Made by a program: the position numbers and the translations under genes
In this document: positions 34,463 to 52,256 of the stretch, piece after piece
How positions within the stretch are numbered: position 1 is the stretch's first letter
Layout: every line of letters begins with the position of its first letter
The notes under the pieces: model-generated
What the model saw: only the letters and a program-made list of their open reading frames with translations
Databases searched by the model: none
What the model was told of the DNA's origin: nothing
From: an uncultured Acidimicrobiia bacterium
Lineage (GTDB): Bacteria; Actinomycetota; Acidimicrobiia; Spongiisociales; UBA11373
NCBI GenBank assembly: GCA_963796115.1
Contig: CAWCKE010000005.1
Span: forward strand, 379,455-443,454
DNA length: 64,000 nucleotides
Reading direction: 5' to 3'

Positions 34463-34466
<4 letters not shown>
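33453..34466 (+). CDS. Bifunctional phosphoglucose/phosphomannose isomerase (SIS domain, bact-PGI_C type)
   Basis: [20 protein letters not shown]...[10 protein letters not shown]...[10 protein letters not shown]; typical partner of pmm in Actinobacteria. Confidence 0.8.
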
Positions 34467-35710
<1,244 letters not shown>

Positions 35711-35725
35711 CCCGGTCGGCCCTGT

Positions 35726-36212
35726 TCAGCCCGCGCGCATGATGCCGGTGGCGGTGGCTATGCCCTCCGGGGTCCCCACGACCACGAGGGTGTCGCCGGC
35801 CTCGATGCGGAACTCGGGCCCGGGCGCCGGGTGGGTGACGTCGCCTCGGAGCACGGCGACCACCGACACCCCCGATCGGCTGCGGATGACGGAGCCGGCA
35901 ATGGTGGTGCCGGCGACGGGGGAGGCCGGTCCCACCTTGAGCCACTCGATGGCGATGCCCTCGACGTACTGCTGCAGGCGGGTCAGGCTCTCGGTGACCT
36001 GCAGTCCGCCGAGGGCTTCCACCAGGGTATGGACCTCGTCGTCGTCGAGGGGGATGCAGAGCGGGGCGGCGCTCGGGATCGTCGGCGGCGCCGACGTGGA
36101 TCTCCCGGCACCCTCCGTGGCGGTGCACCACGCCGAGGAGCTGCCCCTTCTGGGTGGAGAAGTCGTAGCGAACGCCGACGCCGGGGAGGGGGGTCGGTTC
36201 AACCTGGGGCAT
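35726..36212 (-). CDS. TrkA-C domain regulatory protein (KhtT/YhaT-like), one indel near 36070
   Basis: N-terminal part MPQVEPTPLPGVGVRYDFSTQKGQLLGVVHRHGGCREIHV in ORF 35661..36212; C-terminal TrkA_C part in ORF 35726..36202; junction in CGCCGCCCCG. Confidence 0.65.
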
Positions 36213-36289
36213 GCGGGGCCTCCGCCGAGCTTGGCGCCCCCATGATGCCAGGCCCGGGAAGGCTTGGCTGAAGGGGGGCCATCGGGGGC

Positions 36290-38071
36290 TCAGCCGACCG
36301 GCGTGCGCAGATCCACTACCAGCGGCCGTTCGCGGGCGGCCGACTCGATCACTTCCAGGATCTCGCGCCCGACCAGCTCCTGGCGCTCCAGGAGGGCGTC
36401 CCGCAGCGTCTCCAGGACCGGGCGGTGGGCGGTGAGCAGGGCGAGGACGACCTCCTTCTGATCGCGGAGCAGGTGGTCTACCGCCTCCCGGGCGGGGGCG
36501 TCGGCCAGCACCTTGGCGACCAGGTTCCCGCCGAGGAGCCCGTCGTCGAGCGCCCGGAAGGAGATGAGCGAGCCGCCCAGGCCCCTGGAGCCGACCATCT
36601 CGGCGGCCATGCCGGTGGCTGCCGCCAGGTCGCCCGCCGGCCCGCTGCCCGACTCGCCGAACAACAGCTCCTCCGCCACCATGCCGCCCAGGGCGATCTG
36701 GATCAGGGCCAGTGTCTCGCTGCGGCGCTGGGTGTAGCGCTCCTCGACCCCGCTGTGGGCGAGGAGCCCCAGGGCGTCGCGGCGCTTGATGATGGAGAGC
36801 AGGTCCAGCTTGCGCCCGCGGCCCACCAGGTAGGCGACCACGGCGTGGCCCGACTCATGGGCGGCGATGATGGAGCGCTCCTCGGGGGTGTACTCGGTGG
36901 GCTCGGCCAGGCCGATCTCGACATCGAGGCGGGCCCTCCGCAGGTCGTGCACCGACAACCGGTCCCGCCCCCCGCGCAGGGCGAAGAGCAGGGCCTCGTC
37001 GAAGAGGCGTTCCAGGCTGGCCGGGGAGTACCCGATGGTGGAGGCGGCCAGGTCCTCGCGCGCCTGGTCGTCGAGGGTCGCGTCGTGCACCTTGCGGGCG
37101 AGGAAGTAGTCGATGAGCTCCCGCCGCTGCGCCCGGGCCGGCATGGGGAAGTGGAGGACGCGGTCGAAGCGGCCGGGTCGGAGCAGGGCCGGGTCGAGGT
37201 TGTCGGCCCGGTTGGTGGCCCCGATCAGCAGGATGTTGGCGAAGGGAGCGCGGGCCGTCTTGAACTGGCGGTGAGGGGGCAGGTACCGGTTGGCGCAGCG
37301 GCGCAGCGCGTTGGCGAACTTCATGGATCGCGGTGGCTCGTCGAACGACTGCATCTGGACCAGTAGCTCGTTGACCACGCCGCCGGTGCCCTCGGAGATC
37401 ATCGACCGCTCCACCCGGCCGGGCCCGGCCGCGGCGCGGACCATCCCTCCCCGGCGGGCGCCGATGGCGTCGAACTCCTCGATGAACCCGATGGCACCGC
37501 CCTCCTGGCGGGCCACCCTGCGGAGCCGGCGGAAGTAGGACCGGATCTTGCGGGCGGTGGCCCCGTACCACATGCTCTGAAAGGCGGTCGAAGAGACGAA
37601 GAGGAACGGCACCCCGGCCTCCTTGGCCAGGGCCTTGGCGGTGTGGGTCTTGCCCGTCCCCGGGGGCCCCTCGAACAGGACGCCGCGCCGCGGCTGGCCC
37701 CCCATGTCGTCCCGGAAATGCTGATGGTTCAGGAAGACGTCGAGGGTGTGGCGCACCTCTTCGAGTACCGGGCCCAGGCCGAGCACGTCGTCGAAGGTCA
37801 CCTCGATCTGCTCGGGCAGGAAGACGACCTCGGGGGAGCGGCCGTTCCCCAGCATGGGAAGCAGGATGATCGCGCCGAGGAGCAGCACGATGAGGACGGC
37901 GGGGAGCCAGATGACCGCGTCGGGTGGGAGCTCCGGCCAGCCGGGGGAGACCGGGTTGCCGGTGAGGAGGCGCACCCACAACCAGATGACCAGGGGGGCG
38001 AGGGCGATGGCGATCCGGCGGAGACGCTTGCGGCGTTGCCGTTCTCTCGCGACCTGGACGTCTCGCGGCAT
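36290..38071 (-). CDS. FtsH-family AAA+ zinc metalloprotease paralogue (membrane-anchored; atypical AAA insertion and Walker B FIEEFD)
   Basis: Start MPRDVQV at 38071 with GGAAGGAAGGGG SD; two N-terminal TMs; GPPGTGKT Walker A; SRH TNRADNLDPALLRPGRFDR; HESGH zinc motif; ~60-aa insertion between Walker B and sensor 1. Confidence 0.75.
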   Translation of the reverse strand: MPRDVQVARERQRRKRLRRIAIALAPLVIWLWVRLLTGNPVSPGWPELPPDAVIWLPAVLIVLLLGAIILLPMLGNGRSPEVVFLPEQIEVTFDDVLGLGPVLEEVRHTLDVFLNHQHFRDDMGGQPRRGVLFEGPPGTGKTHTAKALAKEAGVPFLFVSSTAFQSMWYGATARKIRSYFRRLRRVARQEGGAIGFIEEFDAIGARRGGMVRAAAGPGRVERSMISEGTGGVVNELLVQMQSFDEPPRSMKFANALRRCANRYLPPHRQFKTARAPFANILLIGATNRADNLDPALLRPGRFDRVLHFPMPARAQRRELIDYFLARKVHDATLDDQAREDLAASTIGYSPASLERLFDEALLFALRGGRDRLSVHDLRRARLDVEIGLAEPTEYTPEERSIIAAHESGHAVVAYLVGRGRKLDLLSIIKRRDALGLLAHSGVEERYTQRRSETLALIQIALGGMVAEELLFGESGSGPAGDLAAATGMAAEMVGSRGLGGSLISFRALDDGLLGGNLVAKVLADAPAREAVDHLLRDQKEVVLALLTAHRPVLETLRDALLERQELVGREILEVIESAARERPLVVDLRTPVG

Positions 38072-38114
38072 CGTCCCCTTCCTTCCTGGACCGCCGCCAC
38101 TGTAGACACTCTTT

Positions 38115-39008
38115 GTGGTTGGTGTCGGGGCGATCGGCCGCGCAAGGTGGTCGTCTCGAGTCGGCGTGTGGACCAGTGCGTTGGCCCGGTGGGGTGCGGT
38201 CACCTGCGCCCGCGTGTCGCTCGCTCCCGTTACGGTGCTCGGCGTGGGGTGCCTCGCCTGTGCCCATCGGAACGCCGTCGGGGGCCCGCTGTGCCGGGAG
38301 TGCGCCGCCGGCTTCACCCGGGGCGGCGCCCGCCGCCTGCCGGGCGGCATCCTGGTTCACAGCGCCTTCGCCCACCAGGGGACGGCCCGCCTTCTGGTGC
38401 ACCGGCTCAAGTACGGCGCTCAACCGGCCGCGGCGGCCCTGCTCGCGGTTCCCATGGCCCGTGAGTTGCCGTCCGGGGCGGCGGCCCTGGTGCCGGTGCC
38501 CCGCGCCCGGCTGCGGCTGTGGCGGTACGGGGTCGATCCCGCCCTGGAACTGGCCCGCGCCATCGGCCGGGTGAGCGGCCTGCCGGTGACCCGGGTCCTG
38601 TCCCCGTCCTGGTGGCACCGCCGCCGGGCAGGCGCTGGCGGGGTCGCGCGGGGCGTGCCCCGCTTCCGGGCGCGAGCCGCGGTGCCGGCCGGGGCGGTGC
38701 TGGTGGACGACGTGGTCACCACCGGCTCCACGCTGGCGGCCGCGGCCGCCGCCCTCGGCCGGCCGCTCCCGGCCGTCACGGCCACCGCCGCCCCGGGGGG
38801 CGGGGCGCCCCTGACGTTGCCGGGGGCGATCGGTATAGTGATCGTCAAGCCCCCTCTCGGGGATATCGACCACGGGAGCGTGCGTGCCGCCAGGAGCGCA
38901 CCGTTGCAGAGGCCGCTCTCGTTCTCCGTCTGCCCGCCGGCCCCGGCGTGTGCCGGACGTCGGCAAAGGAGGTCAAGGTGGAGATTCGTGTCCACGGTAA
39001 GCGCATGA
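38115..39008 (+). CDS. ComF/GntX-family phosphoribosyltransferase-domain protein; boundaries uncertain
   Basis: Double zinc finger CLACA...CRECAAGF, PRTase motif VLVDDVVTTGSTL; C-terminal ~60 aa of the ORF overlap hpf and look non-native. Confidence 0.6.
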   Translation: MVGVGAIGRARWSSRVGVWTSALARWGAVTCARVSLAPVTVLGVGCLACAHRNAVGGPLCRECAAGFTRGGARRLPGGILVHSAFAHQGTARLLVHRLKYGAQPAAAALLAVPMARELPSGAAALVPVPRARLRLWRYGVDPALELARAIGRVSGLPVTRVLSPSWWHRRRAGAGGVARGVPRFRARAAVPAGAVLVDDVVTTGSTLAAAAAALGRPLPAVTATAAPGGGAPLTLPGAIGIVIVKPPLGDIDHGSVRAARSAPLQRPLSFSVCPPAPACAGRRQRRSRWRFVSTVSA

Positions 39009-39529
39009 GCGTCGGCGATGACCTGCGCCTGCTCGCCGAGGAGAAGGTCGCCCGGTCGTCCCGCGTGTTCGAGGGCATCGGGTCCGTCGACGTCGAGTTC
39101 ACCGACGAGCAGAACCCGCGCCTGGCAGCGGAGCGCTGTCGGGTGGAGATCACCTCGAAAGCCGCCGGGCAGTTGGTGCGGGTGGAGGCTGCCGGGTTCG
39201 ACCATCGCTCTGCTCTCGACCTGGCGGTGGACAAGTTCGAGCGTCAATTGGCCAAGTTGAAGGGACGGCTGGTCGAGAGGCATCGCCGGGCAGCAGACAA
39301 ACATCTCAATGGGACCTCCCTTGGCGTCGAAGAAATCGACGGCACGGCGGACCTGCGGATCGAACGCGTGAAGCGGTTCGTCGTCAAGCCAATGACGCCA
39401 GAGGAGGCAGCCCTCCAGATGGAACTGCTCGGGCACAGTTTCTACCTGTTCCTGAACGCGGACACCGAGCGCTACAGCGTGCTGTACCGCCGGCGCAGTG
39501 GTTCCCTGGGGCTGATTGAGCCCCAGTGA
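38978..39529 (+). CDS. hpf: Ribosome hibernation promoting factor, long form
   Basis: GTG 38978 with AAGGAGG SD; VEIRVHGKRMSVGDDLRLLAEEKV...C-terminal dimerisation domain FVVKPMTPEEAALQMELLGHSFYLFLNADTERYSVLYRR. Confidence 0.85.
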   Translation: MEIRVHGKRMSVGDDLRLLAEEKVARSSRVFEGIGSVDVEFTDEQNPRLAAERCRVEITSKAAGQLVRVEAAGFDHRSALDLAVDKFERQLAKLKGRLVERHRRAADKHLNGTSLGVEEIDGTADLRIERVKRFVVKPMTPEEAALQMELLGHSFYLFLNADTERYSVLYRRRSGSLGLIEPQ

Positions 39530-40179
39530 CCCGCACCCGGGTCCTCGTCGTCGATGACGTGGATCTGTTCCGCACGGGATTGAGCGCGGCGCTGCGCGCC
39601 GCCGGCTTCGCTATCTGCGGCGAGGCGGCCAGCGCCGAGGGCGCGGTCACCGCCTCCGAGAGCCTGCTCCCCGACATCGTGGTGCTCGACATCCTCATGC
39701 CCGGGCTGTCCGGGCTCGAGGTGGTCGAGAAGATCCTGGCCGTCTCCCCGACGACCCGGGTCATCCTGCTCACCGGCAGCGAGTCGGTTGAGGACCTGCT
39801 GACCGGCATCAAGGCGGGGGCACGCGGGTATCTGGTCAAGGACACCGCCTTCGCCGGCCTGGCTACCGCCATCGAGGACGTGGCCGCCGGCGGGTCGGCG
39901 ATCTCGGCCAAGATGGGAGGCAAGCTCTTCGACATCCTGCGTCAGTTGCTGCGCCACCAGGACTTCGCCGGGCCCCGGCCTCCCTGCCTCACGGGGCGGG
40001 AACTGGAGGTGCTCCGCCACGTGGCTGCCGGCGAGACCTCCCGGGGCATCGGGCGCCTGCTCTTCATCTCCGAGAACACGGTCAAGAACCACATCCGCAA
40101 CATCCTCGACAAGCTCGGCCTGCATTCACGCAACGAGGCCGTGCTGTTCGCCCTGCGTGAGCACCTGATCGAGTTGTGA
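39526..40179 (+). CDS. LuxR/NarL-family response regulator (REC + HTH), no cognate kinase nearby
   Basis: VLVVDDVDLFRTGL...D54-equivalent VVLDILMPGLSG; C-terminal LTGRELEVLRHVAAGETSRGIGRLLFISENTVKNHIRNI; GTGA overlap with hpf stop. Confidence 0.85.
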   Translation: MTRTRVLVVDDVDLFRTGLSAALRAAGFAICGEAASAEGAVTASESLLPDIVVLDILMPGLSGLEVVEKILAVSPTTRVILLTGSESVEDLLTGIKAGARGYLVKDTAFAGLATAIEDVAAGGSAISAKMGGKLFDILRQLLRHQDFAGPRPPCLTGRELEVLRHVAAGETSRGIGRLLFISENTVKNHIRNILDKLGLHSRNEAVLFALREHLIEL

Positions 40180-40180
40180 C

Positions 40181-41276
40181 ATGACACGGCACGAACCCAC
40201 CGACGTCATCAGCCGTCTCCACCCGGTCCGAGACCCGGGGCGGGCCGACCGCGCGGCCGGACTCCCGGGAGAGGACGAGGCCCCTCCCACCACCGGGGCC
40301 CGCCGGGAGCAGCCTGCCGATCCGTTTGCCGAGGGCATCCTCCTCGAGGCGGGCATCGCCCTCCTGCCGCGACCGGCTGCGGATCGAGAGCGATCGCCGG
40401 CGTTTTCGCGATCTCCTGGTCGGCTGGCGAGAGGAGCTGTCCGGCGCGGTGCGCGCCGGTGAACCGGCCCGGGCCGAGGCCTGGCTGCGGGCCCTGGTGA
40501 CCGACCCGGTGTACCCGACGGCCATGGGCGACCTGGTGGAGGAGGCCCTGGACGAGGTGTCGGTGCCCGAAGTGCTCGATGAGGTGGTCGTCCGCCTGGC
40601 CGCCGCGCCGGTGCCGGGGACCGGGTCCGGCCTGGTGGCGGCTTGGGGCGCCCGCATGGCCGCCCACCTGGTCCGGGGCGTGATCGCCGAGCATTCGCTC
40701 GTGAGCCGCCGTCACCTGACCGAGTTCCTCGCCTGGGTCGGCCGGGAGGACATCCGTCTCCTCGCTGCCTTCTGCCGCGATCCCCACTGGTTCGTGGTGC
40801 GCAACGTGGCCATCGCCCTGGGCCGCACCGGGCGGCTGCAGGCCGTTCCGGCCCTCGAGTCGATGCTCGGACATGCCGACCCCCGGGTGCGGGTCGAGGT
40901 CCTGCGCAGCCTGTGGACTCTCCGGGGTGATGGGTCCGTTCCTGTGCTGACGGCGGCGATGGCCGACCCCGAGCCGCGGGTGCGGCATGCCGCATGCTCC
41001 TTGCTCCGGGCTTCGCCGGGGCCGCTGGTGGTGGCGGCGATCGCCGGGGTCCTCGAATCGCGCGGCGCGGCGGTGTCGGAGGTCCCGCGGCTGGTGGGGT
41101 TGATCGCCGAGCGGACCGAGGCGACCGTGCCGAGGACCTTGGCCCATCTGGCCGAGCTCCACGGCATGGGGGCCGTGGCCCGTGCCGTGCGCCGCGCCGC
41201 CCGGGCGGCGCTCAAGCAGAGGGCCCCCGGGACCGACGTTGCGGCGGGGCCCGACGCCGCCGTCCCGGCCGGCTGA
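40181..41276 (+). CDS. HEAT-repeat (PBS-lyase type) protein, one indel near 40370
   Basis: ATG 40181 frame (MTRHEPTD...[15 protein letters not shown]) switches to ORF 40326..41276 frame; repeated [15 protein letters not shown] / [12 protein letters not shown] / [18 protein letters not shown]-like units. Confidence 0.55.
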
Positions 41277-51720: not shown

Positions 51721-51903
51721 TGGGGCTGCCTGCCCGGCTTGAAGCCGGGCAGGCTCTACTGTCAGTGGAAGCCGCCCTCCGCTCGGCCGCCGGCGGGCGG
51801 CCTGCGCGCCTCGGCGGGCCCGAGCGGGCCGGGACGAGGCCAGGCGGGAATCGCCGCTGTGCGCCCCGCCGTTGTACAGTCTGTGGTGCGTTTCGCGCCT
51901 TCG

Positions 51904-52256
51904 GGGGTGAACTGGTTTCGACTCTGAGGGTTGAAGCGCCGGAAGCGAGCCGAGGTCCCCGGAGTCCTCGTTAAAGAGCCGGGACAAACAATGAGTGCCG
52001 AAGACAACTTCGCACTGGCCGCCTAGTTAGGTGACCCGTCCGCCCGGAGGGCTCCCCCCTCGCCGGTGTCGGGCGTCGCAATGGGGGATGCCCCCGCCGG
52101 GGTTCCGGGACCGGCGGGTCAAGCCCAACTCCGGATAGGGCGCAGGGATACGTGCCGGTAGCGTCCCGGCGCCCGAAACAAAGCTATCGGCTGCGCTCGG
52201 AGATGTCGGCGTGGAAGCTCAGAGGACCGGGGTTCGACTCCCCGCACCTCCACCGG
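51904..52256 (+). ncRNA. ssrA: tmRNA (ssrA)
   Basis: 5' GGGGGTGAACTGGTTTCGAC... tRNA-like acceptor/D region; tag reading frame ...GCC GAA GAC AAC TTC GCA CTG GCC GCC TAG (…AEDNFALAA*); 3' T-arm GGTTCGACTCCCC and acceptor GCACCTCCACC at 52228-52256. Confidence 0.85.

What the first reader, a model, noticed from the sequence alone, without database searches (positions are those of the whole stretch)
35726..38071. FtsH paralogue with an AAA-domain insertion and Walker B variant, paired with a TrkA-C regulatory protein instead of a transporter
The 593-aa protein has all FtsH hallmarks: two TMs, Walker A, SRH and HESGH. It carries a ~60-aa insertion between Walker B and sensor 1, and reads FIEEFD where FtsH has FIDEID. 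This is not the housekeeping ftsH context. Immediately downstream on the same strand is a KhtT/YhaT-like TrkA-C protein, which normally gates K+/H+ antiporters, with no antiporter nearby. This may be a specialised, possibly ligand-gated, membrane protease module.
Basis: inference. Interest (0 to 1): 0.55.

Follow-up and report, generated by a model that had tools for sequence, protein, structure and literature searches.

The report
FtsH-like protease beside decayed antiporter remnant
The FtsH-like membrane protease gene is real and belongs to a widespread, unstudied actinobacterial branch of the FtsH family, but the small potassium-regulator gene next to it is a broken leftover of a neighbouring K+/H+ antiporter operon, not a partner of the protease.

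Summary
The 593-aa ORF (36290-38071, minus strand) is a genuine FtsH-family AAA+/M41 protein. It has two TM helices, Walker A, SRH and HESGH, and reads FIEEFD at Walker B. The extra sequence between Walker B and sensor 1 is 42 aa, not about 60. It is a 32-aa family-wide insertion, predicted as an extra helix, plus about 10 aa specific to this subclade.

The protein has no periplasmic domain and scores 274 bits against NCBI's FtsH equivalog cut-off of 600. It belongs to a conserved clade found in Acidimicrobiia and many Actinomycetes (312 hits among GTDB species genomes).

The proposed pairing with the TrkA-C protein fails. In sister species (82-91% identical protease) the downstream genes are khtT-khtT-CPA2 antiporter, a complete KhtTU/CpeAB-like cassette. 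In the 80 best-matching species genomes, 4 have a KhtT gene there, always with the antiporter. A 92%-identical relative has none, and 19 other Acidimicrobiia have ahcY directly convergent.

In this window the second khtT and the antiporter are missing. The remaining khtT carries a 1-base insertion (position 36072) that splits it across two frames.

Verdict: an ordinary orphan or pseudogene sits next to an uncharacterised FtsH paralogue clade. I could not test whether a canonical ftsH exists in the same genome.

The parts
36290..38071 (-). FtsH-like AAA+/M41 membrane protease gene (593 aa plus stop)
   Evidence: ORF. Pfam AAA plus Peptidase_M41. FtsH equivalog TIGR01241 scores 273.7 bits against a cut-off of 600. 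Homologues of 588-601 aa. The predicted fold matches solved FtsH, AFG3L2 and YME1 structures.
37964..38014 (-). TM helix 1 (aa ~20-36), preceded by a conserved basic N-terminus (DV..RER.R..RLRR)
   Evidence: Hydropathy. AF2 helix 5-36. V5, R9, E10 and R13 are invariant in 75 sequences.
37850..37918 (-). TM helix 2 (aa ~52-74). The loop between TM1 and TM2 is only about 17 aa, so there is no periplasmic FtsH_ext domain.
   Evidence: No PF06480 hit.
37646..37669 (-). Walker A, GPPGTGKT (aa 135-142)
37562..37573 (-). Pore loop 1, M-W-Y-G (aa 167-170). The family consensus is M-Y/W-Y-G, against MFVG in E. coli FtsH.
37469..37492 (-). Walker B, IGFIEEFD (aa 194-201). E198 replaces the usual Asp, and the catalytic E199 is kept.
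   Evidence: E198 and E199 are invariant in 75 relatives. More distant members and all canonical FtsH have DE.
37388..37447 (-). Pore-loop-2 region (aa ~209-228), with about 10 extra residues found only in the closest subclade
   Evidence: Alignment. AF2 pLDDT is below 50 for residues 197-234.
37235..37339 (-). Family-wide insertion between helix alpha3 and strand beta4 (aa 245-279). It is predicted as an extra helix 248-261 plus a loop, and holds the conserved N261-R-x-L264-P motif.
   Evidence: The segment aa 245-279 is 35 aa against 4 aligned residues in E. coli, about 32 extra by the alignment. N261 and L264 are invariant. Mean pLDDT is 87-88 for the 10-residue blocks 251-270, which cover most of helix 248-261. 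Insertions of 23-46 aa sit at the same place in non-canonical FtsH-like proteins of other phyla.
37160..37219 (-). Sensor 1 and second region of homology, ATNR...RPGRFDR (aa 285-304), including the arginine fingers
36845..36859 (-). Zinc-binding HESGH (aa 405-409)
   Evidence: H405, E406 and H409 are invariant.
36671..36673 (-). E467, which aligns with the third zinc ligand of E. coli FtsH (E476 in the 644-aa numbering, E479 in the older numbering)
36213..36289 (-). 77-bp spacer between the protease stop codon and the khtT start codon. It is conserved among the window, L007 and L003 and has GGAGG just upstream of the ATG.
   Evidence: No terminator-like or sigma-70-like site was found by the simple scan.
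36073..36212 (-). khtT-like gene, N-terminal (KhtT_N) part, in frame 1
   Evidence: tblastn with L003 KhtT1 aa 1-47 gives 79% identity. PF25991 KhtT_N is recorded for the orthologues.
36072..36072 (-). The extra base (G on the minus strand) that causes the +1 frameshift in khtT
   Evidence: It is absent in L007 (99% relative), L003 and L004. The position was computed.
35726..36071 (-). khtT-like gene, linker plus TrkA_C (RCK_C) part, in a different frame. The stop codon is at 35726-35728.
   Evidence: Pfam TrkA_C, E = 4e-15. The frame-repaired protein aligns with B. subtilis KhtT (PDB 7AGV) over aa 5-147, E = 3e-14.
34463..35710 (+). ahcY (S-adenosylhomocysteine hydrolase), convergent. Its stop codon lies 15 bp from the khtT stop. 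This is where the second khtT and the CPA2 antiporter sit in sister genomes.

Best explanation
Two unrelated things lie side by side.

(1) The gene at 36290-38071 (minus strand) encodes a member of a conserved actinobacterial clade of FtsH-family proteases.
- It has an N-in, two-helix membrane anchor with only a 17-aa outside loop.
- Its AAA module has an intact Walker A, catalytic Glu, sensor 1 and arginine fingers.
- Its pore loop is aromatic (M-W/Y-Y-G).
- An extra helix is inserted between alpha3 and beta4.
- Its M41 zinc site is intact (HExxH plus Glu).

By homology it most likely works as FtsH does. That is a membrane-bound hexamer that uses ATP to pull substrates through the pore into the protease chamber. 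It probably acts as an accessory paralogue beside a housekeeping FtsH. These last points are inferred, not shown.

In most Acidimicrobiia the gene stands alone, divergent from a comF-like gene and convergent with ahcY.

(2) The sequence at 35726-36212 (minus strand) is what remains of a khtT-khtT-CPA2 (KhtTU/CpeAB-like K+/H+ antiporter) cassette. In one sublineage this cassette occupies the spot between the protease gene and ahcY. In this genome the second khtT and the antiporter are gone, and the surviving khtT has a 1-base insertion.

The adjacency is therefore an accident of gene order, not a ligand-gated protease module.
For: Cassette in sister genomes: L003/L009 (91% identical protease), L004-6/L010 (83%), L011 (82%) and L028 (84%) all read FtsH-like, KhtT, KhtT, Na_H_Exchanger, then convergent AdoHcyase.

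Absence elsewhere:
- L008 (92%) has ahcY 155 bp downstream and no khtT.
- 19 further Acidimicrobiia species have ahcY convergent within 16-437 bp.
- L001/L014 carry unrelated genes at that spot.
- None of the 47 held loci below 60% identity (mostly labelled Actinomycetes) has KhtT, and their context is different (mshB-like, typA).

Decay in the window:
- One extra base at 36072 relative to L007, L003 and L004.
- Only 15 bp separate the khtT stop from the ahcY stop.
- No CPA2 homologue in the 64 kb.

Protease family:
- More than 120 clusters at 73-99% identity, plus others at 52-62%.
- 312 hits among GTDB species genomes, including Kineococcus, Nocardioides, Cellulomonas and Quadrisphaera.
- Catalytic residues are invariant.
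- The FtsH equivalog score is 274 against a cut-off of 600.
- All ten further representative-library hits that I tested (33-41% identity) also fail that cut-off.
- The fold search returns FtsH, AFG3L2 and YME1.
Against: - The frameshift could be a sequencing error. It is not in a homopolymer, which argues for a real mutation, but I have no reads.
- An orphan KhtT could still regulate an antiporter encoded outside the window.
- I could not show that a canonical ftsH exists in this genome or in any genome that carries the paralogue. 'Paralogue beside a housekeeping FtsH' therefore rests on indirect evidence and general knowledge.
- No terminator was found between the protease gene and khtT, so read-through co-transcription cannot be excluded.
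- No biochemical property of this clade has been measured.
Confidence: 0.85

Rival explanations
1. One reading: the FtsH-like protease and the TrkA-C (RCK_C) protein form a functional module. Ligand binding to the RCK_C protein (for example c-di-AMP or a nucleotide) would gate the protease.
For: The genes are on the same strand with a 77-bp spacer, and the simple scan finds no terminator. The adjacency is kept in 5 related species-level lineages.
Against: - In every lineage where the downstream sequence is complete, the KhtT gene comes with a second KhtT and a CPA2 antiporter.
- The pair is absent from a 92% relative and from 76 of the 80 best GTDB loci.
- The khtT in the window is frameshifted.
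- The protein aligns end to end with KhtT, the antiporter subunit.
Confidence: 0.03
2. The khtT-like gene is intact in the organism, and the extra base is an assembly error. It would then serve as an orphan regulatory subunit for a CPA2 antiporter encoded elsewhere in the genome. This is compatible with the main explanation as far as the protease is concerned.
For: - Both halves are free of stop codons in their own frames and remain 78-79% identical to the intact KhtT1 of L003.
- The 99% relative L007 lacks the extra base.
- In Streptomyces, RCK_C proteins of the CpeA type exist in more than one copy (PMC10117811).
Against: - The extra base is not in a homopolymer run.
- The cognate second khtT and antiporter are missing right next to it.
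- No CPA2 homologue lies within 64 kb.
Confidence: 0.2
3. The protein is not a paralogue but the only, divergent, housekeeping FtsH of this lineage.
For: - It is very strongly conserved, at about 75% identity across many Acidimicrobiia.
- Its position is syntenic in the class.
- All catalytic residues are intact.
- I found no canonical ftsH in the window or in the held loci.
Against: - It fails the FtsH equivalog cut-off by a wide margin and lacks the periplasmic domain.
- Clade members at 52-55% identity occur in Kineococcus, Nocardioides and Cellulomonas. From general knowledge these genera carry a canonical ftsH in the tilS-hpt-ftsH cluster. That cluster is described for Streptomyces in PMC4255298.
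- All ten further hits from the 50%-identity representative library that I tested (33-41% identity) are themselves non-canonical FtsH-like proteins, not canonical actinobacterial FtsH; one is labelled Acidobacteriota.
Confidence: 0.1

Closest known systems
Canonical bacterial FtsH (E. coli b3178; solved structures from T. maritima, T. thermophilus and A. aeolicus)
   Same: - Two N-terminal TM helices, then one classic-clade AAA module, then an M41 zinc peptidase.
- Walker A, catalytic Glu, sensor 1, arginine fingers, HExxH and the third Glu ligand all align.
- The predicted fold matches FtsH chains best.
   Different: - No periplasmic domain: a 17-aa loop against about 75 aa.
- Pore loop MWYG instead of MFVG.
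- Walker B reads EE instead of DE.
- 4 extra residues before Walker B.
- A 32-aa insertion (extra helix) between alpha3 and beta4, plus about 10 aa in pore loop 2.
- About 30% identity to E. coli FtsH.
- 274 bits against the 600-bit equivalog cut-off.
- A different genomic context.
Second FtsH copies in bacteria, for example P. aeruginosa clone C FtsH2 (PMC6629908, PMC10850787)
   Same: This is a precedent for an additional FtsH-family protease with a narrower role beside the housekeeping one (abstracts listed).
   Different: PaFtsH2 is a horizontally acquired xenologue on a genomic island. The clade here is vertically conserved in a syntenic chromosomal position across a class. It also has its own architectural changes.
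KhtT/KhtU of B. subtilis and CpeA/CpeB of Streptomyces (c-di-AMP-responsive RCK_C subunit plus CPA2 K+/H+ antiporter)
   Same: - The frame-repaired window protein aligns with KhtT (PDB 7AGV) over its whole length.
- Orthologues carry KhtT_N plus TrkA_C and sit in front of a Na_H_Exchanger gene.
- The function of KhtTU and CpeAB is described in PMC10117811.
   Different: - Sister genomes have two tandem khtT genes in front of the antiporter.
- In the window only the first remains. It is frameshifted and has no antiporter.

Membership tests
FtsH (NCBIfam TIGR01241 equivalog) | Whole-protein score at or above the curated cut-off (600 bits) | tested here: not met
   273.7 bits, matched in two stretches.
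FtsH (NCBIfam TIGR01241 equivalog) | Two N-terminal TM helices flanking a periplasmic domain of about 70-100 aa (FtsH_ext) | tested here: not met
   The two helices are present, but the loop between them is about 17 aa. There is no PF06480 hit.
FtsH (NCBIfam TIGR01241 equivalog) | Classic AAA module with Walker A, Walker B, aromatic-hydrophobic-Gly pore loop, sensor 1 and arginine fingers | tested here: met
   GPPGTGKT, IGFIEEFD (D-to-E at the first acidic position, catalytic E kept), MWYG, ATNR and RPGRFDR.
FtsH (NCBIfam TIGR01241 equivalog) | M41 peptidase with HExxH and a third acidic zinc ligand | tested here: met
   Pfam PF01434, E = 2.5e-26. H405, E406, H409 and E467 are invariant and align with E. 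coli H414, E415, H418 and E476.
FtsH (NCBIfam TIGR01241 equivalog) | Housekeeping genomic context (tilS-hpt-ftsH-folE in Actinobacteria) | tested here: not met
   The gene lies between a comF-like gene/hpf/secA and ahcY/manB in the window and in Acidimicrobiia relatives. It lies after an mshB-like gene in Actinomycetes.
FtsH (NCBIfam TIGR01241 equivalog) | Hexameric ATP-dependent processive proteolysis | not testable with these tools
   Only a monomer was predicted. No biochemistry is available.
KhtT/CpeA-type RCK_C regulatory subunit of CPA2 antiporters | KhtT_N plus TrkA_C architecture, similar to solved KhtT | tested here: met
   This holds after frame repair. TrkA_C E = 4e-15. 7AGV E = 3e-14 over aa 5-147. 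PF25991 is recorded for the orthologues.
KhtT/CpeA-type RCK_C regulatory subunit of CPA2 antiporters | Uninterrupted reading frame | tested here: not met
   A 1-base insertion at 36072 relative to three orthologues.
KhtT/CpeA-type RCK_C regulatory subunit of CPA2 antiporters | Cognate CPA2 (Na_H_Exchanger) gene in the same operon | tested here: not met
   Absent from the window. Present in L003, L004-6, L011 and L028.
KhtT/CpeA-type RCK_C regulatory subunit of CPA2 antiporters | Binds c-di-AMP | not testable with these tools
   No assay is available, and I did not examine the binding residues.
   4 of the 80 best GTDB loci have the pair, always with the antiporter. A 92% relative lacks it.

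The most novel reading that the evidence does not exclude
The protease belongs to a second, functionally distinct membrane AAA+ protease lineage of Actinomycetota. This lineage has no periplasmic domain, an invariant EE Walker B, an aromatic-aromatic pore loop, and an extra helix at the position where other AAA+ clades carry the pre-sensor-1 insert. These changes might alter the ATPase cycle or create a docking site for adaptors or for the housekeeping FtsH (mixed hexamers). That would give the phylum a dedicated regulatory protease nobody has studied.
Probability: 0.3. Interest if true: 0.45.

Novelty: new variant of a known kind. Interest (0 to 1): 0.25.

Why it matters
For the finding as proposed, it does not matter. 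The protease/TrkA-C 'module' is a gene-order accident next to a decaying antiporter cassette, and it should not be carried forward.

What remains of some value is the protease clade itself. A recent review states that most bacteria have a single ftsH gene (PMC9020784). Here is a strongly conserved FtsH-like lineage with its own architecture. It is present across Acidimicrobiia and in culturable Actinomycetes (Kineococcus, Nocardioides, Cellulomonas). NCBI labels it only 'AAA family ATPase', and I found no experimental work on it. It is a tractable target for anyone who studies membrane proteostasis in Actinobacteria.

Tried and rejected
- Canonical ftsH in the same genome. The representative-library search returned no protein that I could identify as a canonical FtsH: all ten additional hits I tested fail the equivalog cut-off. 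I had no Acidimicrobiia canonical FtsH to seed another search, so the question stays open.
- RNA elements. An Rfam scan of the whole window found no riboswitch near khtT, only a tmRNA at 51903-52255.
- Transcription signals. The simple promoter and terminator scan of 35500-38600 found nothing, so transcriptional coupling is undecided.
- Remnants in L008. The 155-bp spacer of L008 shows no recognisable khtT remnant.
- Conserved operon partner of the protease. None is shared between Acidimicrobiia and Actinomycetes. The mshB-like gene upstream in 18 of 47 Actinomycetes-type loci is about 275 bp away, and I did not pursue it.
- Literature. Searches for FtsH paralogues in Actinobacteria or Acidimicrobiia found nothing on this clade.
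- Position of the insertion in the ring. The structure model is only moderate (mean pLDDT 70, pTM 0.44), and no coordinates are exposed. I could not locate the insertion helix relative to the ring or the membrane.
Full report
**What is in the sequence.** The window is high-GC DNA (about 72%). Its closest relatives are MAGs labelled Acidimicrobiia. On the minus strand, 36290-38071 encodes a 593-aa protein. Homologues are 588-601 aa long and share the N-terminus, so the ATG at 38071 is the start, not the longer 686-aa ORF.
- Pfam finds AAA (aa 131-309) and Peptidase_M41 (aa 395-573).
- NCBI's FtsH equivalog model matches at 273.7 bits. That is far below its 600-bit cut-off, and the match falls into two stretches split at about aa 230-278.
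- PDB sequence hits are FtsH and Cdc48/p97-type AAA proteins, at 175-208 bits.

**Anatomy of the protease.** I aligned it with relatives and with E. coli FtsH taken from NC_000913.3.
- A basic N-terminus is followed by two hydrophobic helices (about 20-36 and 52-74). Only about 17 residues lie between them, so there is no periplasmic domain.
- Walker A is GPPGTGKT (135-142).
- Pore loop 1 is MWYG (167-170), where E. coli has MFVG.
- Four extra residues precede Walker B.
- Walker B is IGFIEEFD (194-201).
- About 10 extra residues in the pore-loop-2 region are found only in the closest subclade.
- A 32-aa insertion lies between helix alpha3 and strand beta4.
- ATNR and RPGRFDR (285-304) are present.
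- HESGH is at 405-409. E467 aligns with the third zinc ligand of E. coli FtsH.

The distance from D201 to N287 is 86 residues, against 44 in E. coli. The extra sequence is therefore 42 aa, not about 60.

In 75 relatives at 49-91% identity, the Walker A residues, E198, E199, the pore-loop M/Y/G, sensor 1, the arginine fingers, HExxH, E467 and D481 are invariant. So are N261 and L264 inside the insertion.

An AlphaFold2 model has mean pLDDT 70 and pTM 0.44. It predicts the insertion as an extra helix (248-261; the 10-residue blocks 251-270 have mean pLDDT 87-88) followed by a loop. It leaves residues 197-234 disordered. The best structural matches are FtsH, AFG3L2, YME1 and plastid FtsHi chains.

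**How wide the family is.**
- The big protein database holds more than 120 clusters at 73-99% identity, and many more at 52-62%. NCBI names them 'AAA family ATPase'; JGI names them 'cell division protease FtsH' or 'ATP-dependent Zn protease'.
- A scan of one genome per GTDB species found 312 relatives. The 80 best range from 90% to 52% identity. They include Acidimicrobiia MAGs, strain IMCC26256, Nanopelagicales MAGs, and cultured Kineococcus, Nocardioides, Quadrisphaera and Cellulomonas.
- In the 50%-identity representative library, the ten additional full-length hits I tested (33-41% identity) all fail the FtsH equivalog cut-off. Those that carry an NCBI name are called 'AAA family ATPase', one of them labelled Acidobacteriota.
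- Many of these more distant proteins also have a short TM loop and a 23-46-aa insertion at the same alpha3-beta4 position, but they keep the usual DE Walker B.

The insertion is therefore an old feature of a broad non-canonical FtsH-like lineage. The EE Walker B and the M-Y/W-Y-G pore loop mark the actinobacterial core clade.

**The downstream gene.** The KhtT-like N-terminus (MPQVEPTPLPGVGVRYDF...) is read from the ATG at 36212 in one frame. The TrkA_C domain (Pfam E = 4e-15) is read in another frame and ends at 35726.

DNA alignment with the intact orthologues of L003 and L004, and with the 99%-identical relative L007, shows one extra base in the window. It is minus-strand GA[G]CGCC, at window 36072. 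It is not in a homopolymer. After removing it, the protein aligns with B. subtilis KhtT (PDB 7AGV) over aa 5-147, with E = 3e-14.

The khtT stop codon lies 15 bp from the stop codon of the convergent ahcY. No CPA2 homologue and no second FtsH homologue is found anywhere in the 64 kb.

**What relatives show.**
- On contigs whose protease is 91%, 83%, 82% and 84% identical (L003/L009, L004-6/L010, L011, L028), the order is FtsH-like, KhtT, KhtT, Na_H_Exchanger (401-410 aa, Pfam E = 2e-46), then convergent ahcY. This is a complete KhtTU/CpeAB-type K+/H+ antiporter cassette. In that system the RCK_C subunit binds c-di-AMP and controls the antiporter (PMC10117811).
- A relative at 92% (L008) has ahcY 155 bp after the protease gene and no khtT.
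- Nineteen further Acidimicrobiia species have ahcY convergent within 16-437 bp. Two have unrelated insertions of 1.7-4.3 kb.
- None of the 47 loci below 60% identity has KhtT, ahcY or hpf nearby. There, 18 have an MshB-like PIG-L deacetylase gene about 275 bp upstream on the same strand, with typA further upstream.

The simplest history is as follows. The cassette entered the spot between the protease gene and ahcY at the base of the subclade that is at least 82% identical. It was then lost completely in the L008 lineage. In the window's lineage it was reduced to a single, now frameshifted, khtT.

**Conclusion on the proposal.** It does. There is no conserved protease/TrkA-C pair without a transporter, and the copy in the window is not even an intact ORF. 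The 'ligand-gated protease module' reading should be dropped.

**What the protease most likely does.**
- Shown: domain order, intact ATPase and zinc-protease residues, FtsH fold, strong purifying conservation, and a syntenic chromosomal position in Acidimicrobiia (divergent from a comF-like gene, convergent with ahcY).
- Inferred from established knowledge of FtsH: it forms a membrane-anchored hexamer. It uses ATP hydrolysis and its aromatic pore loops to thread substrates into the M41 chamber.
- Inferred: the D-to-E change in Walker B is conservative and keeps the catalytic Glu, so ATPase activity is expected.
- Inferred: the insertion sits between alpha3 and beta4. This is the edge of the AAA sheet that faces the neighbouring subunit, and it is where other AAA+ clades carry the pre-sensor-1 hairpin. 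It could tune subunit communication or bind a partner. I could not test this.

**Paralogue status.** Paralogue status beside a housekeeping FtsH is likely for four reasons.
- The protein fails the equivalog test.
- It has no periplasmic domain.
- The ten further representative-library hits I tested are non-canonical FtsH-like proteins, one of them from another phylum (Acidobacteriota).
- Clade members occur in genera that, from general knowledge, carry the tilS-hpt-ftsH cluster.

However, I could not search a whole genome for the canonical gene, so this remains unproven.

**Novelty and score.**
- The pairing is an artefact of gene order (ordinary).
- The khtT remnant is an ordinary orphan or pseudogene.
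- The protease is a member of an uncharacterised but database-visible clade, with a distinct variant architecture of a well-known kind.
- I found no paper on it.
- Overall interest is 0.25.

Noticed in passing
window 36072 (minus strand), inside 35726-36212: A single-base insertion splits the khtT-like gene into two frames. The 99%-identical relative L007 lacks it. It is not in a homopolymer, so it looks like a real recent mutation, though an assembly error is possible.
   Followed up: yes
L007 (GCA_036825455.1, DAISYF010000261.1), about 2640-2771: This contig is colinear with the window up to a point inside khtT. It then switches abruptly to low-GC unrelated sequence until the contig end. It is either a chimeric join or a mobile-element junction.
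   Followed up: no
window 51903-52255 (+): A tmRNA gene (Rfam RF00023, 155.8 bits). It is the only Rfam family that reaches its gathering score in the window.
   Followed up: no
L042-L088 (for example L060 6879-7736), upstream of the FtsH-like gene: In 18 of the 47 loci below 60% identity (mostly labelled Actinomycetes), an MshB-like PIG-L deacetylase gene lies about 275 bp upstream on the same strand, with typA further upstream. This is a possible lead to the function of the clade.
   Followed up: partly
proteins P0124, P0134, P0136, P0137, P0140 and others (representative library): Proteins of 800-1400 aa with several AAA modules followed by a C-terminal M41 peptidase are among the best hits, at 33-38% identity. 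Their origin and function were not examined.
   Followed up: no
protein P0151 (601 aa; on contigs up to 490 kb): This family member keeps the insertion and HExxH but has degenerate Walker A (GPAGMGKE) and Walker B (VIEGID). It is possibly an ATPase-dead relative, analogous to plastid FtsHi.
   Followed up: no
window 39526-41276 (+), and L001 4944-7983: A LuxR-type response regulator, a HEAT-repeat protein and, in some relatives, an HD-domain protein form a conserved cluster between hpf and secA. The HD gene appears to be absent from the window and from L003.
   Followed up: no
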